A stretch of DNA of 19,464 nt from a virus (IMGVR_UViG_2671180366_000014), one strand, 5' to 3'; shown: positions 2,593 to 17,548, counted from the stretch's first letter. The notes: a model not told the origin generated them from the sequence alone. Translations and numbers: made by a program.

Positions 2593-2621
2593 TTCTGCCT
2601 CTCAGATTATATAGATAAGCA

Positions 2622-2728
2622 AAAAGGTGTTGGTTCAGTTGGTTCAGTTGGTTCAATTTGTAAAGAGCGTTGTTTTTATTGTGTTTTTTCTAAAATATTG
2701 AACCAACATCAACTCATTTTGAACCAAC
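2622..2728. repeat. left iteron-like cluster: 3 tandem GTTGGTTCA (2629-2655) plus 2 inverted copies TGAACCAAC (2699-2707, 2720-2728)
   Basis: Read directly. 2622-2665 is the exact reverse complement of 10256-10299 (44 bp); the flanking copies mirror the right-hand cluster with indels. Confidence 0.85.
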
Positions 2729-3208
2729 AAAAAGTGTCCGTGAACTAACACTCTGTCAAATAGTCACTACATATATTAACGGTGAAGACTAAATCCGCCA
2801 GCAAATAGCTTATATAGCACCGCTTTATGCCGCAGTTATGCTGGAACAGTAATCATTTCACAGAACCGCCTAACTACTATATGGCACCTGCTAAAAAGCA
2901 CATCAGCCTAGTCAGTTGATCGGTGCATGGATATCCTAACAATTCAACTATATAACGTGATCTCCCATGTCGATCTACTGTCATGCAATGATTAACAAAC
3001 ACATAGACACATCTGCTTGGCGCATTGATTAATCACTGATCATCCATCAGGATATGCGAACCACCGTCACCAGGTTAGGATGATTCTCAAAAGCCACCTG
3101 TATTCAATGCCTTTGATGGGTTTCATCCATAGTTATTTTCTCGTGACTGACATGGAGATTTTGATTTCAAGGTGTGCAAAAACTATCGCAGAGTACAATG
3201 GAGCTCAA

Positions 3209-4165
3209 ATGACTGTGGCACCAAAAGATCAAAGTTTGAAATCTGTAAGGGTGGGCTTTTACACAAGCTCTGAGAATATTCGCACTAGTAACAAGGGGTT
3301 AACCGCAGAGGCCTTTAAAAATCTGTATGATCGGTGTTCTAAAGACTTCAAGATGACCCACTATGCAGACTTTGGTGAAAGAGAACTTAAAATTCATTTT
3401 CTAGACATCTCACCCGAGGATGGCTCCTACTTCGGATTCATGTCTCGAAGAAGAAAAAGCGCAACACTGGCATATATTACAGATAAAGAGTGGGTGGAAG
3501 AGAAAATCCCTCTAGCCGGGGCAAAGACTCTTTCAGAACGTACATACTTTATTTATTATCCTCAGACAGACATTCTAGTATTGTCTTTAAATCATTTAGG
3601 TCCACGCCATAGTGACTTAGCCTTCCTTCTTTTCAACTCCAGTGATCGCGGAGTCCCTGTTTCTTTTGAAGCCATTTGGAAAGAAGAAAGCATCAAAGAA
3701 CTACTCGAAACTGGATCCAATCTAAGAAGCTGCGAGATTTCTGTGGCCATCCCAAGAAACTTCAATGCCGCACAGTATCAACTCGATGGAATGTTCGCGA
3801 ATCAGATGATTGAGATGATCAGAGGCACCAGTTCAAGCCACCTGACTATTTCGTTACGCGGACATTCTCCATTAAAAAGAAAAGCAAAGGGATGGCTTGA
3901 GGATGACGTTAAAAAAAGCCTTAAGGAGATGCTAGAAAAGTTCCCTGGTGGTGATGGTCGTTTAACTTTTGAGAAAGCAAATGTTGTTGCTCAGGGCGAT
4001 AAAAAGAAGAAAAGTCTTGTAGACGAAGTTCTTACGGTAAAGAAGATGGTGCCTATCCAAGCAGATGGGTATCCGACCGATACTGACGTTAAAAATGCTA
4101 TGCTACAAGCAAAGAATGACAACCTTAGGTATCTAACCCAGTACTATTTGGTTAGTCAAACGTAA
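3209..4165 (+). CDS. hypothetical soluble protein, 318 aa (ORF opens at 3080)
   Basis: ATG at 3209 has GGAG 5 nt upstream; the ATG at 3080 has a poorly spaced AGG. Region looks AT-rich relative to the rest of the window. No motif recognised. Confidence 0.6.
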   Translation: MTVAPKDQSLKSVRVGFYTSSENIRTSNKGLTAEAFKNLYDRCSKDFKMTHYADFGERELKIHFLDISPEDGSYFGFMSRRRKSATLAYITDKEWVEEKIPLAGAKTLSERTYFIYYPQTDILVLSLNHLGPRHSDLAFLLFNSSDRGVPVSFEAIWKEESIKELLETGSNLRSCEISVAIPRNFNAAQYQLDGMFANQMIEMIRGTSSSHLTISLRGHSPLKRKAKGWLEDDVKKSLKEMLEKFPGGDGRLTFEKANVVAQGDKKKKSLVDEVLTVKKMVPIQADGYPTDTDVKNAMLQAKNDNLRYLTQYYLVSQT

Positions 4166-4177
4166 CAGGAATACATT

Positions 4178-4615
4178 ATGAGTTCTCGGAAATTGTTTGC
4201 TGCCAAGTCATTGTTTGCTCTAGCTATGGCTATTGCTGGTGCCCATTTTTTACACGACCTAGATCACAATGCTGTCATTTCGGCTGCTGGTGCTCTTTCA
4301 ACTATTTCTGGAGTTCTCTTTGGTTTTGTTTTGGCATCAGTCACCATGCTAAGTAGCTTTGATAGTTCAAAGGGAATTGTAGGCGCTCTAAAAAGTAACG
4401 GAGTACTAAAAGGCATTATTGAGGGGCTTTTTGATACAGGAACTACGCTGATCACAGCCTGCCTATTAGCAATGATCTCGATGTTTGCCCCTGTTGTCAG
4501 CAATCTGCCTCTGGATTATTATGCCCTGCTACTCGCAGGGGCATATTTGATTATATCAATGATAACTTTTTTCTTTAACTGGAAATCTTTATCTAAAATA
4601 ATAAGTTACATATGA
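4178..4615 (+). CDS. small integral membrane protein, 145 aa, about 4 predicted TM helices
   Basis: AGGAA 7 nt upstream of the ATG; starts 12 bp after the stop of the upstream gene; four hydrophobic stretches of ~20 aa. Confidence 0.7.
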   Translation: MSSRKLFAAKSLFALAMAIAGAHFLHDLDHNAVISAAGALSTISGVLFGFVLASVTMLSSFDSSKGIVGALKSNGVLKGIIEGLFDTGTTLITACLLAMISMFAPVVSNLPLDYYALLLAGAYLIISMITFFFNWKSLSKIISYI

Positions 4616-4952
4616 TAAATATTTCAAAATGAGTCCCCCTGCTACGGATAGTCCTTGGCTTAAAAAATACCGTCACCGCTGAATACCCACACAGTGCCCC
4701 CACCCATTTAGTTGGCATAATGTATTCAACTGATTGAGGAATGGCTCCTCTTTTACTACCAAACGGCCATCGCTGGCGCATTCATCCGCTGGTAGTGGAA
4801 CTTTTTAGCCATCAGCGCCTCCCTAAATCAGTTCCTTACATCGCTCAAATTCAACAACCATTGTTGTAATCTTGCTGCTATCAAGTAACGCCTTTGTATT
4901 ACGCCGACTTTATCTTGCCAGCAACATACGCCATCCGATAATTTCGATGTTA

Positions 4953-4968
4953 CGCGCGCGTACTTGTC
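4953..4968. repeat. 16-bp direct repeat CGCGCGCGTACTTGTC, copy 1
   Basis: Exact match to 5239-5254; a partial third copy GCGCGTACT lies at 5331-5339. Sits in a non-coding gap. Confidence 0.7.
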
Positions 4969-5238
4969 GCAAAATATCAGACAAAAGCCAGATTCAGAAC
5001 GTCGTGATAACCACCAGCACAACATGAGAGGTCATGTAACGCGATTTATCACACCAGATACATGTGATTGGTGTACCCGCATAAAACATTGTCATAGCGC
5101 GTCCTGTGCGCATATACGCCGATAATCAACACATCACCACCACTCTGTCTCGTGTAGAGAACAGTTTCATGGTACTCCCCTCCATTGTGTGCGTACTGGT
5201 CGGACGCAGTTGCAAAACTTTTTGCAACTGATACCCCT

Positions 5239-5254
5239 CGCGCGCGTACTTGTC
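5239..5254. repeat. 16-bp direct repeat CGCGCGCGTACTTGTC, copy 2
   Basis: Exact match to 4953-4968. Confidence 0.7.
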
Positions 5255-5446
5255 TCGAAATTGGTGTTTTGCTGTGGCAGTGATATCAGAAAAATCTTCC
5301 TGTTTCACATAAAGCGGATATGCGCGTACTGTAACGACCCCATCAACGGGATCGGATTTGAAATCCTGACCCAAGCTATGTACCAAATGCCATGTCTTGG
5401 ATATATGATGATTGCCATTCTAAACAAAGCTAAAGGGAGGGTTGGT

Positions 5447-5803
5447 GTGAGGGGGCAGGCAGTTATAATTATTTTGTTGGGTTTAATTGTCGCAAAGTTA
5501 TACCCGACTTTATCGATGGTGTTTTTTGCCATTATTGGCGCAGCCATCTTTACTTATATCATTAAACATACCGCCTTGTGGTTCTATAAAATTGATATAG
5601 TTCAGAAGTTTGTACGTCCTGTGTCGATGTTATTACTAGCATTAATACCAATTGGTGTTGCTTATGTAATTGATGTTTTTTACCCTTCGGACACTGAAAG
5701 GTGGTTGATAGTTTTGTATTGTTATATTGGTGTAGCTCTCTTTTGTGGATTTCATTGGTGTTTCGAAAAGATCAATGACTCTATTTCAAAGAATAAAGAT
5801 TGA
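5447..5803 (+). CDS. small integral membrane protein, ~119 aa, about 4 TM helices (start uncertain)
   Basis: GTG at 5447 preceded by GGGAGG with 6-nt spacing; alternative ATGs at 5405/5408 lack an RBS. The upstream part of ORF 5189..5803 is not protein-like. Confidence 0.45.
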   Translation: MRGQAVIIILLGLIVAKLYPTLSMVFFAIIGAAIFTYIIKHTALWFYKIDIVQKFVRPVSMLLLALIPIGVAYVIDVFYPSDTERWLIVLYCYIGVALFCGFHWCFEKINDSISKNKD

Positions 5804-5822
5804 GGCCATCCGTGGCCATTCA

Positions 5823-7940
5823 CTAGTCATTATCTGGATCATTAGATAGCCAAGTAATGATGCCCAGTCTGGCGATGGTCCGTTTTTCCTGTTCAGGAAG
5901 AGAGTTAAAAAAACTCTTCCATTGAGGGGAGCGCCTGATACGTGAATCAACAATGTGCCCAGGCGCTTTTCCGTGTAGATTTTTTACTGCGCTCTGGAAG
6001 GCTGGCGAGGCAATTAATTTATCCGCAGCATCAGCCGCCCCTGCTCCACCAGCTAATCGAGCTTTACTCGCCAATCTTGCTCCAATATCAGCCCCAGCAA
6101 TGGCTCCAAGCGATCCAAAATGAGCGCCTACCATCGTGCCTATTTTTTGAATGTGTTTTGCTGCTAGTTCGTATGGAGCTGTTACCCGATTAAATCTGTT
6201 TACAAACTCATTCAGCTTACCAGTAGATATTTCATGCGCTTTAGCATTTTTTATTGCTCTGGCAACTTTGTATACATCATATAGTCCGCTCATTGTTTCT
6301 TTTGGCAAATGTTCAGCCAAAGTCTTTAGCTGTCCACTGTGTTGCAAGTTTTGCCACCAATCTGCAAAGCCAGATGGATTAAAGTCGGCCCCACGCTTCC
6401 CAGAGGAAAGCATATCTCTTAATGCTGTTCCTACTAGCTCCCTTCGCAATGTTCTTGATGGAGTATTTTGCATAATCTCACGAAACCCTCTCGCATCACC
6501 TTTTGCCATAGATTGAAGAGAATTCGTTACTTTATACGCTATATCCCCATTAAGTGTTTTCCCGCGAAGATTTACCATTTGCCTTTCTAAGTTTTTTCTC
6601 ATAGCTACAAGGCGTTGTGCGACTTCGAAATCTCGCAAGTATCCAGTATTGGATAAGACAGATTTTTGGTCTTCAGCTAAAGCTCCATATAGTCTTGATA
6701 GCGCTTCTTTATCAGCATCTTTGTATGGCCCCTGCTTTTTATTTAGGGCATCACCAACTAAACGCCTTTGCCTGTTTAAATTTGCATACGTTAGGATGCT
6801 ATCTGGGCCGGGGTTTATTGCTGTAAAAACTCGCTTTTCTATTGGGTCAAGATTATCCCACCCTCCTAAATCATCAGCGATTTTTTCCAGCATAGTGCTT
6901 GTGTTATTTGCTTCGACTTTTGTTCTTGGTGATAGAGCGGAATCAACACGTTTATATAACTGATCACTACGGTTTTTTAGTGCTTCCATTCTACTATTTA
7001 TCTGATAAATATATTTTTCGCTCATAGCTAACGCATCTGGCGCACCAGCAACATCATCGATTATCTTGCCAGCACTAGAGGCTAATTCGCTTATTGCTTT
7101 ATCTTCTTGAGCTTTTAACGCTGATCCTGTCCGTGACTTTAGGGCTTGCTCTACAGCTTGGTATTGCTCATTTCCTGATAAATGAGAAGGAAGAACTGAA
7201 TCAACATGAAGCCTATTTGCAGCCTCAACAATTTCTTTCTGAGGTTTTAGATCTAGCCCTTCAAGCGAAGAGGCAAGATTTGGGTTGCCTTGTGCAGATA
7301 ACTTACGAATTTTCTCTTCGGCAGGAGTAATCCCCTCAATATCTGGAATCGAAGAAACATTCTTCTTGGTTAATTTCCCAGCTATTTTATTAATTGCAGG
7401 GCCAGCAAGTTCGGCTACAGGGCCAGCCACAGCGCCAATAGCAGCGCCGGAAGCAACATCGCTATTTGTTCCATTGGCTACAATAGCCCCTTCTCCAGCA
7501 CCAAGCCCTGCGGCGGCAGCCAGTCTTGCCGCCCCTTTGGGAACCTGAGAAATAATCCCACCACCACTAACAAATGGCGCTGCTTGTCCAACGAACTCAC
7601 CAACATCTTGTGCGGTTGATGGTTTTGCCGCTAACTTCTGCTGTAGAGACTGAATTGCGGCTTGCTCTTCTGGTGTCATATCCTGAAACAGGCCAACACC
7701 TTTACCAACATCCATCAATCCACTGAGAACGCCATACATAAAACGGTCGAAACCGTTAGCATTATTAACAACATTTTCCTGTCTGGAATTTTCCTCTGGT
7801 GAAACCAAAGGTGATTGCTGCTGTTCTGGTTGGGCATCAAGCACAAAACCATCAGGAAGCTGTGAACTATCAGGAAACTGTGAGTTATCAGGTTGTTCAT
7901 CGAGCACAAAACCTTCCGGTAAGATTACATTTGCTGCCAT
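5823..7940 (-). CDS. hypothetical large protein, 705 aa, Ala/Gly-rich with glycine-zipper-like segments
   Basis: AGGAA 6 nt upstream of the ATG; start overlaps the end of the upstream gene by 16 bp. N-terminal tandem repeat LPEGFVLDEQP / LPDGFVLDAQP. Confidence 0.8.
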   Translation of the reverse strand: MAANVILPEGFVLDEQPDNSQFPDSSQLPDGFVLDAQPEQQQSPLVSPEENSRQENVVNNANGFDRFMYGVLSGLMDVGKGVGLFQDMTPEEQAAIQSLQQKLAAKPSTAQDVGEFVGQAAPFVSGGGIISQVPKGAARLAAAAGLGAGEGAIVANGTNSDVASGAAIGAVAGPVAELAGPAINKIAGKLTKKNVSSIPDIEGITPAEEKIRKLSAQGNPNLASSLEGLDLKPQKEIVEAANRLHVDSVLPSHLSGNEQYQAVEQALKSRTGSALKAQEDKAISELASSAGKIIDDVAGAPDALAMSEKYIYQINSRMEALKNRSDQLYKRVDSALSPRTKVEANNTSTMLEKIADDLGGWDNLDPIEKRVFTAINPGPDSILTYANLNRQRRLVGDALNKKQGPYKDADKEALSRLYGALAEDQKSVLSNTGYLRDFEVAQRLVAMRKNLERQMVNLRGKTLNGDIAYKVTNSLQSMAKGDARGFREIMQNTPSRTLRRELVGTALRDMLSSGKRGADFNPSGFADWWQNLQHSGQLKTLAEHLPKETMSGLYDVYKVARAIKNAKAHEISTGKLNEFVNRFNRVTAPYELAAKHIQKIGTMVGAHFGSLGAIAGADIGARLASKARLAGGAGAADAADKLIASPAFQSAVKNLHGKAPGHIVDSRIRRSPQWKSFFNSLPEQEKRTIARLGIITWLSNDPDND

Positions 7941-9268
7941 TTTCCGTTCCTGTAAATGATTTTCTGACCAGTTTTAGGGTTGGTTGCCGTTGCGCCTTCT
8001 GATATTCCTCCGGTTGCCGCTTTTGCCTGTCCAGTGCCAGCCTGTGATGTAGGCTGCCCGGAAACATCGTCAAATAGCTTCGCTTTCCTTCTTTCAAGGC
8101 TTTTTCTTAGCCCCTGAGGAATAGTTTCTCCATATGTATCGAGATACTCGTCAACCTGCTGGTTAAACTGCTGCCCCATAGCATTGGCGTTGATTTTTGC
8201 GGCGTTAACAATGTTATCCTTTGCCTCCTGCGACAGGCCGTTTCCAGCATTAAGCTGGTCTATGTATCCTTTGATTTGTCCCCATATGCCATCAGACCGC
8301 ATTACCTGAACCTGTTCGCCTTCACGAACGACTGACTGCGGGTCAAGAGATTTCATGTAGTTGAAGATAATCCCAAGTTGGGCAGCGCCAGTATTTACCT
8401 TGCTAAGGGCTTGCAGAGAGTTTGCCGCCGCTCTGACAGAGTTATAATTTTTGCCAAAATTGGTAATGTCAGAATTTAATCCCTTAATTAAGTCTGCTGA
8501 CGGCTTACCTTTTTGCCCCAGCTCCATTAGCTTCAATCCCATCTCATCTGAGTGAATTTGTGCTCGCTGAGCCCTGTCTAGTTGAGCGTTCTGGATATTT
8601 GCCCATCCTCTCGCGTTCTCCATGTCAGCCTGACGCATACTTTCATCCAGTCGCCCTTGCTCAAGTCGACGACCTTCCATTTGATCTTTGATATCGAAAT
8701 ACTTCTCATGACCGAGAGAAAACAGCGCCAGATTACCTGCGAAATGCTGGAAGCCCTGCGGGTCATTAACCTGCATTTCAGCAATAGTTTCTGGAGGGAT
8801 ACCTAAACGACGCATCTCCTGCTCATTATCTATCATGAACCTGCCAAATGCGCCCGGACCAAGCGATGAGGCTACCTGTGCTTTGAGCGCCAGATTGCCA
8901 TAATCATCCCTTTGAGCATCATCGACATAACTCATCCCTTTACGGACTTCCTCAAACTCTTCTGGGAATGCTGTAATAAGATTACGCATCTGCTCCCTGT
9001 CACCGGACGCATAAGCATCTGCATAACCTTTCTGGAATGCCGCTTTACGCTCCTGCTGTTGCTGCTGCTTATAAATATCAGCAACTCCAGCCAGACCACG
9101 AAGACCTGTCAGAGCAACGTTATTTGCACCTGAGCGAGCCAGTTCATTGTTTTCGCGGATCAGACCAAGCGTTGCGTTAATGTCGCTTGCCTTTGGCGCA
9201 TTCTCATTTTGCGTACCGATGCCAGCCAGAAAACCACCAGAATTAATACCCTGTTGCCACGTAGCCAT
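7925..9268 (-). CDS. hypothetical protein, 447 aa, Gln/Ala-rich, probably coiled-coil
   Basis: ORF 7925..9280 opens on GTG; first ATG at 9268 (MATWQQ...) lies 4 nt after the stop of the 57-aa ORF. Contains a QQQQQ tract. Confidence 0.8.
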   Translation of the reverse strand: MATWQQGINSGGFLAGIGTQNENAPKASDINATLGLIRENNELARSGANNVALTGLRGLAGVADIYKQQQQQERKAAFQKGYADAYASGDREQMRNLITAFPEEFEEVRKGMSYVDDAQRDDYGNLALKAQVASSLGPGAFGRFMIDNEQEMRRLGIPPETIAEMQVNDPQGFQHFAGNLALFSLGHEKYFDIKDQMEGRRLEQGRLDESMRQADMENARGWANIQNAQLDRAQRAQIHSDEMGLKLMELGQKGKPSADLIKGLNSDITNFGKNYNSVRAAANSLQALSKVNTGAAQLGIIFNYMKSLDPQSVVREGEQVQVMRSDGIWGQIKGYIDQLNAGNGLSQEAKDNIVNAAKINANAMGQQFNQQVDEYLDTYGETIPQGLRKSLERRKAKLFDDVSGQPTSQAGTGQAKAATGGISEGATATNPKTGQKIIYRNGKWQQM

Positions 9269-9272
9269 AAAT

Positions 9273-9446
9273 TTACCCACGTCCAGTTAAAGTGTAAGCC
9301 AGCGCCTTATCCATTAATCCCCGAGCAATTTCGTGGATCGTTGGCGCAACTCCTACCTCTGATTTTTTACGCTGCTCCTCCTGAATTTTCTTTATCGCTT
9401 CCATTTGCTTCTCACTTATCAATACTGGCTTTACTGAAATAGCCAT
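9273..9446 (-). CDS. small protein, 57 aa (MAISVKPVLISEKQMEAIKK...), not in the supplied ORF track
   Basis: Translated by hand on the minus strand: ATG at 9446 with GGGGG 4 nt upstream, stop TAA at 9273-9275 followed by ATTT-ATG of the 447-aa gene. Confidence 0.5.
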   Translation of the reverse strand: MAISVKPVLISEKQMEAIKKIQEEQRKKSEVGVAPTIHEIARGLMDKALAYTLTGRG

Positions 9447-9540
9447 AACGCCCCCTTAGAACTGTATAAAACAACAGTCATTATAGTTTCATAAAACGCA
9501 ACATTCATCATTGTGATTGCAAAATATGAAACAAACAGCA

Positions 9541-9574
9541 CAAAAAAATGCCACCGTTCAGTAGCTGGTGGCAT
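9541..9574 (-). terminator. rho-independent terminator (minus strand)
   Basis: Stem ATGCCACC / GGTGGCAT with an 11-nt loop; on the minus strand it is followed by a run of 7 T. Lies between the 152-aa gene and the 57-aa gene. Confidence 0.55.
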
Positions 9575-9600
9575 CGTTCTGTATGTCAGGTTTTGACAGT

Positions 9601-9622
9601 TTTTTTATGGACTCTAAAAACT
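9601..9622. repeat. 22-bp motif TTTTTTATGGACTCTAAAAACT (copy A)
   Basis: 20 of 22 positions identical to 15075-15096; core TTTTATGGACT also at about 16155-16165; a near copy TTTATGGAGTC at 9627-9637. Confidence 0.7.
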
Positions 9623-9626
9623 ATAT

Positions 9627-10085
9627 TTATGGAGTCGCATTACTCTTCATGGCGTGAGCTTTCCTGTTCTCTCTTTGTTCCTGGTTCCATGGATAAGTGT
9701 AATTGCCACCAGCAAAGACCATATTGATTTTGTGAGGAACCATTAAAGCGATATCAGCACTCATGTCACTGAATGAAACACAGTGCAGGCGTTCAAGCCA
9801 TTTGTATGCTGCTGCCGCTTCTCCCCACAAATTAATCCCTGCAAGTTCAACAATATCTCTGATGGAGCAGATATCAACCATCCCGTTAACGCCTGTAAAA
9901 CGGCGTTTAAAGTCGCCAAGATACTTTCTGAAAAGAGTTGCTTTCATTGGTTCAGAAAGGTCTATGTATGGGAACACAACCACATCAAGCAGCATCTCCC
10001 TTCTGTTGTTCATCGGTATTACAGATGGCAAATCGGATACTTTGCCAAATACATGATGAAAAGCCTTTGCGATTATCTTCATCAT
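9627..10085 (-). CDS. hypothetical protein, 152 aa
   Basis: ORF 9627..10088 opens on TTG; ATG at 10085 has GGGAG 4-5 nt upstream; followed by a terminator. Confidence 0.6.
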   Translation of the reverse strand: MMKIIAKAFHHVFGKVSDLPSVIPMNNRREMLLDVVVFPYIDLSEPMKATLFRKYLGDFKRRFTGVNGMVDICSIRDIVELAGINLWGEAAAAYKWLERLHCVSFSDMSADIALMVPHKINMVFAGGNYTYPWNQEQRENRKAHAMKSNATP

Positions 10086-10181
10086 CAATCTCCCACTGAA
10101 ACCAGTGATGTGGTGTTCAGATTTCGTAAAACACTCTCTAATGCCAGCCAGATGTTGTGCTCATCAATTCAGTCACATTGT

Positions 10182-10299
10182 GTTGGTTCAAAATACCGTG
10201 TTGTTGGTTCAGTGTTGGTTCAATAAAAAGAATAAAATCCTTATAAAACAATACACTTTACAAATTGAACCAACTGAACCAACTGAACCAACACCTTTT
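10182..10299. repeat. right iteron-like cluster: GTTGGTTCA at 10182, 10203, 10214 plus 3 tandem TGAACCAAC (10266-10292)
   Basis: Read directly; mirror image of the left cluster. Sits between the primase stop (10318) and the 152-aa gene start. Confidence 0.85.
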
Positions 10300-10317
10300 C
10301 TACGCACATGAAGAAGC

Positions 10318-13074
10318 TCATTCTTCAGATGAGTTATAATCTCCTGGCTGGTAATTGAGTACATAAACGTTTATTTGTCGTCCCTGAATACGTGGTGATT
10401 TTCTTTGGTATCCACGACCGCTGTTTGGTGGGGTTAGCATCCCGGCTTTTTTCAACACTTCAGCAAACTGTTTTGCGTTGAAACCACATGCGATCTCCTT
10501 TTCAAATGTGGCCGGGAATGTGTAGAAAATCATTGGGCTTTCGTCATGTTCTCCACGCTGACGGTATCCGGCTAAATCTTTGATGGGCAAATCTGCCGGG
10601 CTGTATGGAAATGGTGCAAAACGGCTAAGCCCATAGGCATTAAGAAATGCCTCCGTTTGTTCAATAATCTGCTGATGTTCTTTGTTACCTGTGCCGAACT
10701 CGCGCAACCATGCGTTATAGCTGTGCTGTATCGCATCACGGCATGTCTGAGCATCCCAGCCTGTTACAACTTCGCCTAACAGCAATGCTGCCTCCAGAAT
10801 GGCAAATCGCGCGGCTACACGGTGAACCTGCTCACCATAATCGGATGGGATCAGGCTTCTCCATCTGCTTTCGCAATCACGAACAGTTTTAATAGCCTGT
10901 TGCTGGTGGTCTGCCAGCCATTTAATCCACTCACGCCCGGCTGCGCCGTGGTGATGCTGGTAAGCGTCTTTCAGTGCGTCTGCGTGCTGTTTTCCGTTCT
11001 GGTAATCGTGAAAGCGTACTGCTTTACTCAACGGAATATTCAGCAGTCGCACCAGTTGCCCGGCTTTGGTTTTTCGCCCGGAAGTAGCGATAAATGTTTC
11101 TAAATCCATTTCTCCGGTGCTGATTGCCACTGTACGCCAGCGTTTTAGATCCCGGTTTCCACCATCTTTAGCGCCTTGCAGTTTCCCTACACCGTTAAAT
11201 AACGCATAGGCAGACTGTGAAACGCTGACAGGATCAGCGCCCTGACCAACTTCATCAAGCGGCATTAATCCGTCATTGTGGGCGGCGGCCTCATTTGCCA
11301 GCCCCAGCGCGGTTCCGTACCACGTCAGCCGCAGTAAATCAGGGTTGCCGTATAAGCTGCTCGCCACGTTTGCCGTGGTGGTCTTACCCGCGCTCGACTG
11401 CTCATAGAAATGAATGCCGAACCCGTCAGCGCCCACCAGCCCAATCAATGGCGCTGCCAGTGCTGCGCCGATCCCGGTCATCATTGAATAGTTACCAAAG
11501 GCCAGACGCGCCACGTTATCACGCCAGCTTTTCGCGCTCCCTGAGACGGTATATCCGGCTGCGGCTGAGCTTCTCCCGCTGAACAGCACAGGATTTTCAG
11601 GTGTTCCGATGATTTCCCCATCAGGCATGATGTACGCTCCGCATTGCCAGCCAGTGGCATGAGCAACACGCCACAATTCACGAGAGCCACTGCGTTGTAG
11701 CCAGTCTGCCAGTATTGCTCTGAGGCTGCTTTTGGTCGTGACATTTACCCCACCAGCTTTAAGTGTGCGCCATCCTTCACGTTCACCAATATCAGCCAGT
11801 GGAATGGCAGCGGTTGTCGGCGTTTCAGAACCAAACGACAGCCAGCGAAGAATGAGATACTGGTCTTTATCGTCTCTGCCAGTACCGATAACGCTTAACG
11901 GAGAACATAACCAGCTTTCGTTATTGATGATTTCTCCACTCTGGCTGTCAGCTCTCGGAGATACCCAATAAATACCATCCTCGCGGCTTTCTATTCTTGG
12001 TTTCAGTGGGTCGGTATCCATAACCTTAAAATCGCTTCCCTCAATGGTCTGTGGCTGCTGTTTCACGCCATTACCCTGTGGTTGGTACATTGACTTATTG
12101 AACGCTTCTGTGGCGCATTTAATGCCGTGTTTTTGGTGGTAATCATTCCAGTCTGCTTTGTGATCTGTCGGGGGTAATGCCACCCATCCAGAAACAGATA
12201 AAGCTGCTTTTTCTGCTGCTATTCTCCCCGTGTTTTGTCTTCCTTCGCTGTGGTCGTTATCCGCAGCAATGATGATTTGTGCTGAAGGAAATTTATCCCG
12301 CAGTACCTGGGCGACATATAACAGGTTCCCGGCATCAATCGCCGCCACTGTCAGCGCCTCTGGACGAATTAAATGGGCAGATAATGCCGTTGCCAGCCCT
12401 TCTGCGATTAAGATGCTCTGTGTTGTTTCTGGTGCGTTTATGGCGTGATATGCCCCTCGCTTTGCTGAACCTGTCAGGAGTCTTTTTTCACCATGTGAGG
12501 TAATAGTCTGTGCTGCTGTGACTGCGCCGGATTTATCCACCAGCGCCAGCAACAGAGATCCATCGGGCAACACGGGGAATGTAAAATCACCTACCCCTTT
12601 CGCAACCAGATAATCAGATTTGCCGTTTACAGCCTTTCTGCGCATGTCATCAAACTGACGGGAAAACGTATCCCGTCTTTGTTGTTCGTCCTTCTCTGCC
12701 CTTTTCAGGCGCTCCTGTTCGCGTCGCTGGCGCTCGGTTTCCAGTTGTTCCCGTTTCTGGCTGGTGGCTTCTGGTGTTTCCGTTGTCCGGTAATCAATAC
12801 CCAGAACATCAGCGGCAAGAAGCGCCGCCTCTGTTGTGTCGCAGTTATTTACGCGTTTAATTAAATCCAGCCCATCACCAGCGCCGCACTGATTACAGAT
12901 GAAGCTACCGCGCCCGTTGTCATCGAACCGGAATCGATCTTTGCCCCCACATGCAGGGCAGGGAGCATGACGGCGCGGAGAGTCAGGGACATTTATGTTC
13001 AGGCAGCCCAGCACATGAGGCCAGTTGTTTTCAGACGCACTGATAACCTGACGGATAAGATCAATGTTTCGCAT
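10318..13074 (-). CDS. DNA primase-helicase, 918 aa (N-terminal zinc ribbon, Toprim-like primase, C-terminal P-loop NTPase; P4 alpha-like)
   Basis: CPACGG...CNQCG zinc-ribbon motif, acidic IIIAADND Toprim-like stretch, Walker A SSAGKTT, Walker-B-like LMPLDEV; GGGGG RBS 6 nt upstream of the ATG. Confidence 0.9.
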   Translation of the reverse strand: MRNIDLIRQVISASENNWPHVLGCLNINVPDSPRRHAPCPACGGKDRFRFDDNGRGSFICNQCGAGDGLDLIKRVNNCDTTEAALLAADVLGIDYRTTETPEATSQKREQLETERQRREQERLKRAEKDEQQRRDTFSRQFDDMRRKAVNGKSDYLVAKGVGDFTFPVLPDGSLLLALVDKSGAVTAAQTITSHGEKRLLTGSAKRGAYHAINAPETTQSILIAEGLATALSAHLIRPEALTVAAIDAGNLLYVAQVLRDKFPSAQIIIAADNDHSEGRQNTGRIAAEKAALSVSGWVALPPTDHKADWNDYHQKHGIKCATEAFNKSMYQPQGNGVKQQPQTIEGSDFKVMDTDPLKPRIESREDGIYWVSPRADSQSGEIINNESWLCSPLSVIGTGRDDKDQYLILRWLSFGSETPTTAAIPLADIGEREGWRTLKAGGVNVTTKSSLRAILADWLQRSGSRELWRVAHATGWQCGAYIMPDGEIIGTPENPVLFSGRSSAAAGYTVSGSAKSWRDNVARLAFGNYSMMTGIGAALAAPLIGLVGADGFGIHFYEQSSAGKTTTANVASSLYGNPDLLRLTWYGTALGLANEAAAHNDGLMPLDEVGQGADPVSVSQSAYALFNGVGKLQGAKDGGNRDLKRWRTVAISTGEMDLETFIATSGRKTKAGQLVRLLNIPLSKAVRFHDYQNGKQHADALKDAYQHHHGAAGREWIKWLADHQQQAIKTVRDCESRWRSLIPSDYGEQVHRVAARFAILEAALLLGEVVTGWDAQTCRDAIQHSYNAWLREFGTGNKEHQQIIEQTEAFLNAYGLSRFAPFPYSPADLPIKDLAGYRQRGEHDESPMIFYTFPATFEKEIACGFNAKQFAEVLKKAGMLTPPNSGRGYQRKSPRIQGRQINVYVLNYQPGDYNSSEE

Positions 13075-14163: not shown

Positions 14164-14354
14164 TTTTCACCCCCAAGAATTACCAGCTCTGCACGGGCAT
14201 CGTTAACCAAAGATGAGCACGCTTTAATCGCATCCACGACATCAGCAGCGTCCATTTCTTCAGCCGAAAGACTGACAGCAACCAGGACAGCCGCTGCTTG
14301 CTCGATTAATTGAAGTGCGGACGTAAGGCGAGGGGTATTAATTGAGTTATTCAT
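14160..14354 (-). CDS. small hypothetical protein, ~64 aa
   Basis: ORF 14160..14411; ATG at 14354 (MNNSINT) overlaps the upstream stop at 14347 by 8 bp. Confidence 0.45.
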   Translation of the reverse strand: MNNSINTPRLTSALQLIEQAAAVLVAVSLSAEEMDAADVVDAIKACSSLVNDARAELVILGGEK

Positions 14355-15414
14355 TGGTTGCCCCCGTCTTTCCTGGCATTTCGCCACCTTCCAGCAGGAA
14401 ATGAACGTCACGAACGGCGAGATCCAATATCGCGAGCAACGCCTTCAGTTTTTCGTCTCGTGAGGGAGAGCTGCTCACCAGAATGTCATTAATCACTTCT
14501 GTCAGTGTGATGATCTGGCTTGTGCGTTCGAGGGGGTCCATATGCACATCGTAGGTTTTAATCATGTGCCACCTCCATGCGGATACGACCAACAAAAAAG
14601 CAGACGTTATCGCGCACCAGAGAACGGCGAGCATCGCGTTCAGACTCGGCAGCAATATGATGAATTTTGGCGGTAATTGTCGGGCAATCGCGGCGAACTG
14701 CGGCGATAATCCAGATAAATTGCGGTTTTTGGGTAGGGGTAGTAGCCAGCATGTGGCAGCCTCCTTCAGATAGCAGGTTACGCTACCACCGGAAACGCCA
14801 ATTTCGCTGGTGGTAGCCCAGACAGGGTTGGCGTAACCGGCTCTGAAGGATACCGGCGCTTCCGAAGAAGCCCCCGCCTGAGCCACCATTGATTGACAAA
14901 GGCGCTGGATTATACACCAACGCCCAAAAAATGGGTGAGTCAGACCTACGACATAAAAAAAGACGCTCGGCGCGTCATATGTCGCCTTCAGAATTTTCAG
15001 GACGCCAATCCCGGCACCCGTTTTATGAGGTGCCTTATAACCATAAACCGTGTTGCCGCATAACGGCAAGCTCTTTTTTATGGACTCCGAAAACTCACTA
15101 TTGGAAGAACCAGAAGCACAGTACATCGCGCTCATTTCGTTAACGTCACGCGCGTGGACGAATGTTTTTGTGGAGTCACTACACGAGCAGAACAGGTGAT
15201 CTACGACCAGAAATTCTCTGGCGCAGCCGCTGACCTTCTCAACGCTAACACCATCGACCGTAATTTCTGACATAGTTAAGGCATCCGCTCCTACCACCAG
15301 AAAATGATAAACTTTGCTTGTATCTGCTGTATTAATGCCAGACTTTGCTGTCATATTGCCGGATTTTGGCGACATACCAGCCAGTGAAAATATCTTCTTC
15401 TGGGCGGTTAGCAT
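14347..15414 (-). CDS. hypothetical protein, 355-aa open frame; gene structure ambiguous
   Basis: ATG at 15414 has GGAGG 6 nt upstream. The frame then stays open to 14347, but contains a second strongly RBS-preceded in-frame ATG at 14565 and overlaps an alternative-frame 64-aa ORF (14558..14752) that has its own GGAGG. See findings. Confidence 0.4.
15075..15096. repeat. 22-bp motif TTTTTTATGGACTCCGAAAACT (copy B)
   Basis: 20 of 22 positions identical to 9601-9622; lies inside the 355-aa open frame. Confidence 0.7.
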
Positions 15415-17210: not shown

Positions 17211-17548
17211 GATTGCAAATGCAGGTGGGATAATTATTTTCTTTATTTTCAATTAGTTACCAGTTTAAAAAATCATTGTTTTATCAAAGAGTTATATCTT
17301 TCATCGTCATTCATCATGTTTTTACATTTCTTTTTATCTTTTATTATTCAATTGGTTGAGTCGGTTTATAATGGCTCATGATGGCTTAAAATGGCTAATG
17401 ATAGCTGGCGTATCTTTTAGAGATGGGGTGATTACAGATGAACTAAGCCGAACAGATATAGCAATGGCTAGGCGAGAATTATCTATGCTGGTGGAGATGG
17501 GTAAACAGGTAATGCCCCGCCATTGCTTTGGAGGGGCGTGAAAAGTGA

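What the first reader, a model, noticed from the sequence alone, without database searches (positions are those of the whole stretch)
10182..10299. Iteron array immediately 3' of the primase-helicase gene is a candidate origin of replication
Six copies of the 9-mer, three of them in perfect tandem, lie within 120 bp directly after the primase stop codon in an AT-rich context. In P4-like satellites and in PICIs the origin is typically an iteron array close to the replication gene. The motif shares a TGAAC core with the P4 type I iteron TGTTCACC (reverse complement GGTGAACA).
Basis: partly seen in the sequence, partly recalled or inferred. Interest (0 to 1): 0.5.

Follow-up and report, generated by a model that had tools for sequence, protein, structure and literature searches.

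The report
Replication origin of a phage-satellite island
The repeats right after the primase-helicase gene are very probably the binding sites from which this E. coli phage-satellite island (a PICI) starts copying itself, a known design; what had not been seen is an identical second repeat block 7.4 kb away.

Summary
The 9-mer GTTGGTTCA occurs 6 times at 10182-10292, starting 25 bp after the primase stop codon. In the whole window there are 11 exact copies against 0.14 expected. The copies are two opposed sets, not six direct repeats. Three spaced copies (11 and 21 bp apart) and three in perfect tandem face each other across a 43-bp spacer of 16% GC.

The window is a chromosomal island between dinD and yicC, laid out like a Gram-negative PICI (int, alpA, icd-like, DUF4222, primase, perC). 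PICI and SaPI origins are known to lie directly 3' of the initiator gene, as opposed iteron sets around an AT-rich centre.

Comparative evidence supports the origin reading:
- 55 of 62 related loci keep this layout.
- At least nine different iteron sequences occur, and each goes with its own version of the primase's last ~25 residues.
- A nearly identical element exists as a 12-kb circular episome.

The two arrays bracket variable cargo. The proposed link to the P4 iteron is not supported.

Verdict: a new member of a known kind. No experiment was possible, and which array fires is unknown.

The parts
10318..13074 (-). Pri-Rep gene. The 918-aa product has a Zn-ribbon, a TOPRIM primase domain and a DUF927 helicase domain.
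   Evidence: Pfam: Zn_Ribbon_Prim 2.8e-15, Toprim_3 6.1e-15, DUF927 3.5e-47. Residues 401-813 match PDB 8tch_A 'Pathogenicity island protein' (E=1e-11) and the SCCmec Cch helicase 5dgk (E=0.007). Residues 7-361 are 33% identical to P4 alpha.
10354..10425 (-). Codons for residues 884-907 (NSGRGYQRKSPRIQGRQINVYVLN), the inferred iteron-reading tail. Residues 891-896 lie at 10387-10404.
   Evidence: Each iteron class has its own tail sequence. Only 7 of 985 alignment columns separate TGAACCAAC primases from TGAGACAAC primases, and 5 of them are residues 891, 892, 893, 894 and 896.
10293..10317 (-). 25-bp linker between the stop codon and the first iteron, carrying the semi-conserved motif TTCATGTGCGTAG.
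   Evidence: The motif is conserved after the stop codon across loci of different iteron types. Its role is unknown.
10266..10292 (-). Array A, proximal set: three perfect tandem 9-bp iterons (GTTGGTTCA on the - strand).
10223..10265 (.). 43-bp AT-rich spacer (16% GC), the candidate melting site. It contains the semi-conserved motif TTTTATAAGG (- strand).
   Evidence: The motif is kept across iteron types. The central gap has a median of 45 bp and a median GC of 0.22 in 55 loci.
10182..10222 (+). Array A, distal set: three iterons at 10182, 10203 and 10214 (spacing 21 and 11 bp), opposed to the tandem set.
   Evidence: The 11/21-bp spacing is conserved in relatives.
10143..10151 (-). Conserved non-iteron box CTGGCTGGC, about 30 bp beyond the last iteron.
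   Evidence: Present in loci of at least five different iteron types. Its role is unknown.
2629..2655 (+). Array B: three perfect tandem iterons (GTTGGTTCA).
2656..2698 (.). Array B AT-rich spacer, also 43 bp (21% GC).
2699..2749 (-). Array B: three spaced iterons at 2699, 2720 and 2741 (the last has 1 mismatch), spacing 21 and 21 bp.
   Evidence: The 21/21 spacing is shared by distal arrays in many of the other split loci shown.
2593..2628 (-). Conserved box CACC-TTTTTGCTTATCTATATAAT between the array B tandem set and the perC start codon.
   Evidence: A similar TTTTGCTTATATA box follows the distal tandem set in compound and split origins, including a plasmid whose primase is only 43% identical. 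The sigma-70 scan made no call here. Its role is unknown.
2750..10181 (.). 7.4-kb variable cargo segment between the two arrays.
   Evidence: None of its ORFs of 80 aa or more has a homologue in the inter-array segments of 11 other split loci. In the episome L086 the arrays are only 1.8 kb apart.

Best explanation
**What it is.** Array A (10182-10292) is the core of the vegetative replication origin of a PICI-type phage-satellite island.

**How it most likely works.**
1. The island's own 918-aa Pri-Rep protein combines a TOPRIM primase with a DUF927 helicase of the SaPI-Rep type. It recognises the 9-bp iteron TGAACCAAC through its extreme C-terminus, about residues 884-907 (inferred from covariation).
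2. Protein assemblies load on the two opposed iteron sets, probably one hexamer on each side as proposed for SaPI Reps (inferred by analogy).
3. They melt the 43-bp, 16%-GC spacer between the sets. The protein then acts as its own helicase and primase on the excised circular element (inferred).

**Array B.** The second array (2629-2749) carries the same iteron in mirror orientation and is bound by the same protein (inferred). It is either the second half of a bipartite origin, since in many relatives the two halves are contiguous, or a second origin or control site.

**Shown here:** the anatomy, its conservation, the protein-DNA covariation, the homology of the helicase domain and the existence of an episomal form.

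**Not shown:** binding, melting and actual initiation.
For: **Anatomy.** The array has 3 + 3 opposed iterons around a 16%-GC, 43-bp spacer, 25 bp after the stop codon.

**Published design.**
- Gram-negative PICI origins lie immediately 3' of pri-rep, with two iteron sets flanking an AT-rich region. The EcCICFT073 pri-rep-ori segment drives plasmid replication (PMC6092414).
- SaPI Reps are self-loading helicases whose C-terminal winged-helix domain reads 6-12 iterons placed right after rep, half on each side of an AT-rich centre and in opposite directions (PMC9371898, PMC7581432).

**Island context.** Gene order is int, alpA, antA, DUF4222, ash, icd-like, primase, perC, all on one strand. This parallels EcCICFT073. 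The site, yicC-dinD, is also used by the published EcCIRM13514.

**Helicase homology.** Residues 401-813 match a SaPI 'Pathogenicity island protein' structure (8tch, E=1e-11) and Cch.

**Conservation.** 55 of 62 loci with primases 52-100% identical have at least 4 exact copies of one 8-mer, in both orientations, within 200 bp of the stop codon. The first iteron lies 21-46 bp after the stop, and the central gap has a median GC of 0.22.

**Concerted change.**
- At least nine iteron sequences occupy the same positions in an otherwise alignable backbone.
- Each iteron type has its own C-terminal tail.
- For pairs more than 90% identical over the rest of the protein, tail identity averages 0.96 when the iteron is the same and 0.59 when it differs. 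5 of the 7 discriminating columns are residues 891-896.

**Arrays far from the tail-coding DNA still match.**
- The distal arrays found 0.3-9 kb downstream in the split loci carry the locus's own iteron, including minority types.
- In L057 the only array is 7.6 kb upstream, yet it is the type its tail predicts.

**Episomal form.** NZ_CP148430.1 is a complete 12,152-bp circular record with a 99.7% identical primase, int, perC and both arrays.

**No competing signal.** No DnaA box, sigma-70 promoter, terminator or Rfam family competes for the sequence.
Against: - No replication, binding or melting experiment exists for this element or this primase allele.
- The tested PICI origin (EcCICFT073) uses a non-homologous Pri-Rep (BLASTP E=1.2), so the argument rests on architecture and on homology to SaPI Rep.
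- The fold of the C-terminal region could not be established. The AlphaFold models had pLDDT 41 and 54, a PDB profile search found nothing, and the best Foldseek hit was Cch at only E=0.03 and TM 0.33.
- The tail is encoded 60-130 bp from the iterons, so part of the covariation could reflect physical linkage rather than selection.
- Three of 62 loci have no array after the gene.
- The strand can fold into a long hairpin (z = -4.5).
- With two arrays present, the site of initiation is not known.
Confidence: 0.8

Rival explanations
1. Array A is bound by Pri-Rep but is not where synthesis starts. It would be an auxiliary cis element like P4 crr, or a copy-control array like the P1 incA or F incC iterons that lie downstream of the rep gene. 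The true start would be array B or some other site.
For: - In P4 the array directly 3' of alpha is crr, and ori lies 4.5 kb away.
- The window has two arrays with the same iteron.
- Distal arrays are themselves a conserved family with their own 21/21 spacing and AT-rich spacer.
- That P1 and F keep control iterons downstream of rep comes from my own knowledge and was not tested here.
Against: - In about half of the relatives all 12 iterons sit in one block of about 300 bp right after the primase gene, so the origin must be there.
- Array A keeps the AT-rich centre with the conserved TTTATAAGG motif, which is degenerate in array B.
- Control arrays in P1 and F are direct repeats without a central AT-rich gap (my own knowledge).
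- In PICIs and SaPIs the tested origins are the arrays 3' of rep (PMC6092414, PMC9371898).
Confidence: 0.12
2. The opposed repeats act as a nucleic-acid hairpin, in RNA or extruded DNA. This would be a terminator, attenuator or processing site between the primase gene and the downstream cargo genes, not a set of protein binding sites.
For: The - strand RNA of 10160-10320 folds at -49.8 kcal/mol, z = -4.5 against shuffles. Concerted iteron changes in relatives would also preserve such pairing.
Against: - The arms are not colinear: one is a 9-bp tandem and the other is spaced 11/21 bp, which forces 2-nt and 12-nt bulges.
- No T-tract follows, and the terminator scan makes no call in the array.
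- Compound origins contain extra iterons in direct orientation that have no pairing partner.
- Array B sits upstream of perC in the opposite orientation, not in a 3' UTR.
- A hairpin does not explain a threefold repeat of one 9-mer in each arm, or the covariation with a protein tail.
- There is no Rfam family match; the best hits are chance miRNA models far below their thresholds.
Confidence: 0.03
3. The repeats are operators for a transcription factor of the island, such as PerC, AlpA or Pri-Rep acting only as a regulator. They would control expression of the downstream genes and have no role in replication.
For: - Array B abuts a conserved TTTTGCTTAT..TATA box just upstream of perC.
- Array A lies in the 229-bp gap before the next gene.
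Against: - The arrays stay with the primase gene whatever gene follows: perC in some loci, an ssb-like gene or others elsewhere.
- The only protein feature found to track iteron type is the primase tail.
- No sigma-70-like promoter is called in either region.
- A regulatory side role of the distal array is not excluded and is compatible with the best explanation.
Confidence: 0.05

Closest known systems
Origins of Gram-negative PICIs, e.g. EcCICFT073 (Fillol-Salom et al. 2018, PMC6092414)
   Same: - Same host species and the same island plan: int, alpA, icd-like, DUF4222, primase, ori, then perC.
- The origin lies directly 3' of the primase gene, with tandem iterons, an AT-rich gap and opposed iterons.
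- The integration site yicC-dinD is shared with the published EcCIRM13514.
   Different: - The initiator is not homologous. The window has a 918-aa TOPRIM+DUF927 protein, against a 584-aa 'DNA primase family protein' in EcCICFT073 (BLASTP E=1.2), a 607-aa protein in EcCIRM13514 and a RepA-type helicase in EcCI042.
- The iteron differs: TGAACCAAC here, TCTACC there.
- Here the origin is split into two arrays 7.4 kb apart.
- The island is larger (about 18 kb against 8.5-12 kb for the published E. coli PICIs) and carries P22-type ejection genes instead of capsid genes.
SaPI origins and Rep helicases (SaPIbov1, SaPI1; Ubeda et al. 2007 as cited in PMC7581432 and PMC9371898)
   Same: - The helicase domain is homologous (8tch E=1e-11; the Cch/DUF927 lineage).
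- There are 6-12 iterons immediately after the gene, half on each side of an AT-rich centre and in opposite directions.
- Specificity lies in the C-terminal end of the protein (for SaPI; here).
   Different: - The host is Gram-negative.
- The primase is fused and is of the P4-alpha TOPRIM type.
- Iterons are 9 bp rather than 5-6 bp.
- A second distal array is present.
- The winged-helix fold of the C-terminus is not confirmed here.
Satellite phage P4 ori / crr with alpha protein
   Same: - The N-terminal Zn-ribbon and TOPRIM primase domain is homologous (33% identity over aa 7-361).
- There are two iteron-bearing cis regions kilobases apart, one directly 3' of the primase gene, with iterons in both orientations.
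- An icd-like gene, an ash gene and an alpA/vis-like gene are present.
   Different: - The helicase and the DNA-binding end are not homologous to alpha.
- The P4 iteron TGTTCACC is absent from the window.
- The genome annotation names no psu, sid or delta gene.
- In P4 the gene-proximal array (crr) is two 120-bp direct repeats, not one opposed pair around an AT-rich gap.
Iteron plasmids with a separate control array (P1 incC/incA, F incB/incC). From my own knowledge, not tested here.
   Same: Several arrays of one iteron are bound by one initiator, and one array lies downstream of the rep gene. This raises the possibility of initiator titration or pairing between arrays.
   Different: - The initiators are unrelated (RepA/RepE winged-helix dimers that need DnaA and host DnaB).
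- Their control arrays are direct repeats without an AT-rich centre.
- No DnaA box lies near either array here.

Membership tests
PICI/SaPI-type replication origin | The origin lies immediately 3' of the initiator (pri-rep / rep) gene. | tested here: met
   The first iteron starts 25 bp after the TGA stop codon. The median offset is 25 bp in 55 related loci.
PICI/SaPI-type replication origin | Two sets of short iterons in opposite orientation flank an AT-rich region, with at least two iterons per side and 6-12 in all. | tested here: met
   3 + 3 opposed copies surround 43 bp of 16% GC. The criterion is taken from PMC6092414 and PMC9371898.
PICI/SaPI-type replication origin | The initiator is a self-loading helicase of the SaPI Rep kind. 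| tested here: met
   DUF927 scores 3.5e-47. Residues 401-813 match 8tch_A 'Pathogenicity island protein' at E=1e-11 and Cch (5dgk) at E=0.007. PMC7581432 links DUF927/Cch to SaPIbov1 Rep. Self-loading itself cannot be tested here.
PICI/SaPI-type replication origin | A C-terminal winged-helix domain of the initiator reads the iterons. | tested here: inconclusive
   Covariation of residues 884-907 with iteron type is strong. The fold is not established: pLDDT is below 50 in this region, there is no PDB profile hit, and Foldseek gives only Cch at E=0.03.
PICI/SaPI-type replication origin | The ori fragment supports initiator-dependent replication of a plasmid. | not testable with these tools
   This needs cloning. 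Indirect support: a 12,152-bp circular record has a 99.7% identical primase and both arrays.
Gram-negative PICI (the element as a whole) | int, alpA and pri are present and transcribed in one direction, in a small island at a specific chromosomal site that is not a prophage. | tested here: met
   int, AlpA-family gene and primase all lie on the - strand. The island spans about 18 kb between dinD and yicC. The site is shared with EcCIRM13514.
Gram-negative PICI (the element as a whole) | Helper-phage-dependent induction and packaging. | not testable with these tools
   No lambda-type cosN was found. The cargo includes P22-type ejection proteins, which hints at a P22-like helper but proves nothing.
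P4-like satellite ori/crr | An alpha-type protein, homologous along its whole length, whose C-terminal domain binds type I iterons. | tested here: not met
   Only aa 7-361 align to P4 alpha. The helicase is DUF927, not the alpha type.
P4-like satellite ori/crr | The type I iteron TGTTCACC is present in the cis elements. | tested here: not met
   There are 11 exact copies in P4, all in crr and ori, and 0 in the window.
P4-like satellite ori/crr | Two separate iteron-bearing cis regions, one directly 3' of the primase gene. | tested here: met
   The arrays lie at 10182-10292 and 2629-2749. The P4 layout is given. This is a resemblance in layout only.
P4-like satellite ori/crr | P4 hallmark genes psu, sid and delta. 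| tested here: not met
   None is annotated in the island, and none appeared in the Pfam or PHROG scans of the larger ORFs. Not every small ORF was scanned.

The most novel reading that the evidence does not exclude
The island uses a bipartite origin. Two mirror-image Pri-Rep-binding units must pair, by looping as P4 ori and crr do, either to fire or to limit replication. They also form conserved borders of a swappable cargo cassette: recombination between the arrays of different islands would exchange whatever lies between them. Here that cargo includes P22-type ejection proteins. In this reading the distal unit also places Pri-Rep next to the conserved TTTTGCTTATATA box, which would couple replication-protein occupancy to expression of the downstream genes.
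Probability: 0.2. Interest if true: 0.55.

Novelty: new member of a known kind. Interest (0 to 1): 0.35.

Why it matters
It places a widespread island family on the map of satellite replicons. Part of this 1.3-kb region is found in 530 of 5426 complete E. coli genomes, and relatives occur across Enterobacterales. The replicon joins a P4-type primase to a SaPI-type helicase and uses a PICI-type origin.

The comparative data also yield a compact, testable recognition code. About six residues (891-896) track a two-base change in the iteron, and at least nine natural protein/iteron pairs are available. That could be used to build orthogonal replicons, or to predict which satellites are compatible in one cell.

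The split origin bracketing variable cargo suggests how such islands acquire and exchange accessory genes. All of this follows an already described design, so the result refines knowledge rather than overturning it.

Tried and rejected
**Structure of the protein.**
- An AlphaFold2 model of the full protein with 30 homologues of at least 80% identity had mean pLDDT 41.
Neither model is usable for a fold claim.
- Foldseek on the weak model gave only Cch at E=0.03.
- A PDB profile search with the C-terminal alignment found nothing.

**Other possible functions of the repeats.**
- Rfam gave only chance miRNA-model hits far below threshold.
- The sigma-70 promoter and terminator scans made no call in either array.
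- No DnaA box lies near either array, and the window total is at chance level.
- There is no convincing lambda cosN and no tRNA.

**Identity of the element.**
- The published att core GAGCAGATTCAA of EcCIRM13514 gave only one near-match beside yicC, so the island ends were not defined.
- Megablast of the region against phage genomes found no match.
- I searched the supplements of PMC6092414 for this iteron or primase and found neither.
- The ED1a genome is not in the collection. I therefore could not tell whether the fourth published Pri-Rep allele is this one.

**Rejected idea.** Homology with the P4 iteron is rejected.

Full report
**1. Observation**

Between the primase stop codon (TGA at 10318-10320, - strand) and the next gene (start at 10085) lies a 229-bp gap. 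It holds GTTGGTTCA on the + strand at 10182, 10203 and 10214 (spacing 21 and 11 bp). On the other strand the same 9-mer forms a perfect 3x tandem at 10266-10292.

The two sets face each other across 43 bp of 16% GC (10223-10265), in a window of 45.7% GC.

The motif is far above chance. There are 11 exact copies in the window against 0.14 expected, and 0 of 200 shuffles reach 11.

It did not say that the copies are 3 + 3 inverted.

**2. A second array**

The other five exact copies, plus one copy with a single mismatch, form array B at 2629-2749. Array B has three tandem copies, a 43-bp spacer of 21% GC, and three opposed copies spaced 21 and 21 bp.

Array B aligns with the reverse complement of array A. 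The 40-nt stretch GGTGTTGGTTCAGTTGGTTCAGTTGGTTCAATTTGTAAAG is identical in both.

The arrays are therefore mirror images 7.4 kb apart. Array B lies just upstream of a PerC-family gene (2305-2592, - strand).

**3. What the element is**

The window is 100% identical to E. coli W46. It is an island of about 18 kb between dinD and yicC.

All its backbone genes lie on one strand: integrase, an AlpA-family regulator, AntA, DUF4222, Ash, an Icd-like gene, four small ORFs and a 918-aa primase. Cargo follows, and then perC.

This is the plan of Gram-negative phage-inducible chromosomal islands (PICIs). EcCICFT073 shows it too: int, HTH regulator, icd-like, DUF4222, primase, ori, ssb, perC. The yicC-dinD site is used by the published EcCIRM13514.

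PMC10111431 already lists DUF927 among PICI primase domains. It also describes a downstream zone that captures phage late genes.

**4. The protein**

Pfam finds a primase Zn-ribbon, a TOPRIM domain and DUF927.

- Residues 7-361 are 33% identical to P4 alpha, and nothing beyond that aligns.
- Residues 401-813 match a solved staphylococcal 'Pathogenicity island protein' (8tch, E=1e-11) and the SCCmec helicase Cch (5dgk).
- PMC7581432 states that DUF927/Cch is related to the SaPIbov1 Rep helicase. It also states that SaPI Reps use their C-terminal domain to recognise iterons directly downstream of the gene.
- PMC9371898 adds further detail: 6-12 iterons, an AT-rich centre, half the iterons on each side pointing in opposite directions, self-loading, and probably two hexamers.

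Array A fits that description point by point.

**5. Comparative test**

A scan of one genome per species returned 77 loci. Of these, 64 had a usable primase match, with primases 52-100% identical across Enterobacterales.

- Of the 62 loci with at least 200 bp after the stop codon, 55 have at least 4 exact copies of one 8-mer in both orientations within 200 bp.
- In those loci the first iteron lies 21-46 bp after the stop (median 25). The central gap has a median of 45 bp and a median GC of 0.22.
- Four more loci have three exact copies. Three loci have no array after the gene.

The iteron sequence itself varies between lineages: TGAACCAAC, TGAGACAAC, TGAACCGAC, AACCGACC, TAACCCGT, TAACCCAC, TACCCGAC and TGGGATAAG. 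Positions, spacing and several non-iteron motifs stay alignable throughout. These motifs are TTCACATGCGTAG after the stop codon, TTTATAAGG in the spacer, and CTGGCTGGC beyond the last iteron.

Between a TGAACCAAC locus and a TGAGACAAC locus, the same two bases change in all 12 copies.

**6. Who reads the iterons**

Each iteron class goes with its own version of the last ~25 residues of the primase:

| Iteron | C-terminal tail |
|---|---|
| TGAACCAAC | QRKSPRI.GRQ(I/F/Y)(N/R)VYV |
| TGAGACAAC | QGRV-RE.GRQIRVY |
| TGAACCGAC | TRK(T/S)LRIDGKQPRFVV |
| TAACCCGT and TAACCCAC | KKAL..(I/M)GGKQH.FY variants |
| TGGGATAAG | QIRTPRLKH.NNAR |

- Among 985 alignment columns, only 7 separate the 27 TGAACCAAC primases from the 5 TGAGACAAC primases. 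Five of the 7 are residues 891, 892, 893, 894 and 896.
- For pairs more than 90% identical over the rest of the protein, tail identity averages 0.96 when the iteron is shared and 0.59 when it differs.

One caveat applies. The tail is encoded within about 130 bp of the iterons, so physical linkage could contribute to the covariation.

Three facts argue against linkage as the whole story:

- The sequence between the tail-coding codons and the iterons is conserved between classes.
- The distal arrays found up to 9 kb away carry the locus's own iteron, including minority types.
- In L057 the only array lies 7.6 kb upstream of the gene, yet it is the type its tail predicts.

I could not confirm a winged-helix fold. 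The models were of low confidence. The only structural hit was Cch at E=0.03.

**7. Two layouts of the origin**

Relatives have one of two layouts.

- **Compound.** 12 iterons sit in about 260-300 bp, in the orientation pattern ---+++++-+++.
- **Split.** 6 iterons sit after the gene, and 5-7 more lie 0.3-9 kb downstream.

The window is of the split kind.

The distal arrays form a conserved family. They share the tandem triple, CAATTTGTAAAG, an AT-rich spacer, often 21/21 spacing, and a TTTTGCTTAT..TATA box on the outside.

The DNA between the arrays is not conserved. None of the window's inter-array ORFs of 80 aa or more has a homologue in the corresponding segments of 11 other split loci.

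**8. An episomal form**

NZ_CP148430.1 is a complete, circular 12,152-bp record from an E. coli genome. It carries a 99.7% identical primase, the same int and neighbouring ORF, and perC.

It also has both arrays with 12 exact iterons, only 1.8 kb apart.

This shows that the element type exists as a free circle and that the inter-array cargo varies. It does not by itself prove replication.

Other TOPRIM-DUF927 elements of 7-22 kb are also deposited as plasmids. One has a primase only 43% identical, yet shows the same iteron layout and the same TTTTGCTTATATA box.

**9. Comparison with P4**

The P4 record places crr (4291-4590) directly 3' of alpha and places ori 4.5 kb away. Both carry TGTTCACC in both orientations.

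The window has no TGTTCACC. Its DNA-reading end is not homologous to that of alpha.

The shared TGAAC pentamer is therefore not evidence of relatedness.

What P4 does offer is a functional precedent for two separated iteron regions served by one initiator. It also warns that the gene-proximal array need not be the start site.

**10. Rivals**

- **Hairpin.** A long hairpin is thermodynamically possible (z = -4.5). However, the arms are not colinear, no T-tract follows, compound origins have unpaired direct copies, and a hairpin does not explain the protein covariation.
- **Promoter or operator only.** There are no consensus calls in either region. The arrays stay with the primase gene whatever gene follows.
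- **Control or crr-like element.** A role for array A alone remains possible at roughly 0.1.

**11. Verdict**

Array A is, with about 0.8 confidence, a Pri-Rep iteron array that functions in replication initiation of a PICI-type island.

The design is already described, so this is a new member of a known kind. The additions are the TOPRIM-DUF927 initiator allele, the mirror-image second array bracketing variable cargo, and a short C-terminal specificity segment with at least nine natural variants.

Interest is 0.35.

Noticed in passing
window 5823-9280 (- strand): The cargo between the two arrays encodes two P22-type ejection (E-) proteins. One is 451 aa and matches Inj_translocase PF16928 (1.3e-74) and phrog_917 'released from the phage upon host infection'. 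The other is 705 aa and matches phrog_6704 and phrog_770 'DNA transfer protein'. Neither hits PADLOC. A satellite that carries its own ejection proteins may point to a P22-like helper, or to tampering with helper DNA delivery.
   Followed up: partly
window 2593-2628; also L003, L008, L023, L044, L088 and the distal arrays of the split loci: A conserved box, CAC(C)-TTTTGCTTAT(A/C)TATA, always follows the outer tandem iteron triple. It is kept even in a plasmid whose primase is only 43% identical. In the window its TATAAT lies just 14 nt from the perC start codon, too close to serve as an ordinary promoter for perC. Its function is unknown.
   Followed up: partly
window 10143-10151; also L003, L008, L015, L044, L046: A non-iteron motif, CTGGCTGGC, lies about 30 bp beyond the last proximal iteron and is kept across at least five iteron specificities. 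It contains two CTG triplets. It could be a primase start site or a host-factor site; this was not tested.
   Followed up: no
L081 14188-14197, compared with L003, L005, L008: The experimentally tested EcCICFT073 origin shares the non-iteron motif GCCGCGCCA (TGGCGCGGC) with the compound origins of this family, although the two initiators are not homologous. This hints at a shared origin backbone or a common host-factor site.
   Followed up: no
window 17366-17406: A 20-bp unit (TTAAAATGGCTAATGATAGC) is repeated twice in the 470-bp gap between the alpA-family gene and the int-side ORF. It may be a regulator binding site in the island's control region.
   Followed up: no
L033 (Yersinia pekkanenii): This locus has three compound iteron arrays, at -5736, -1154 and +27 relative to the primase stop codon. 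The primase match is stretched over 3.8 kb, which suggests tandem or nested copies of the replication module.
   Followed up: no
L057 2340-2520: A complete iteron unit, preceded by the hairpin-like motif that normally follows a primase stop codon, sits directly upstream of an integrase gene, while this locus's own primase gene has no array after it. This may be a remnant of a neighbouring element or a relocated origin.
   Followed up: partly
window 14347-15414 (- strand): The Ash-domain ORF is annotated in RefSeq as an incomplete pseudogene (L001 19180-19815), so part of the island's early region may be decayed.
   Followed up: no
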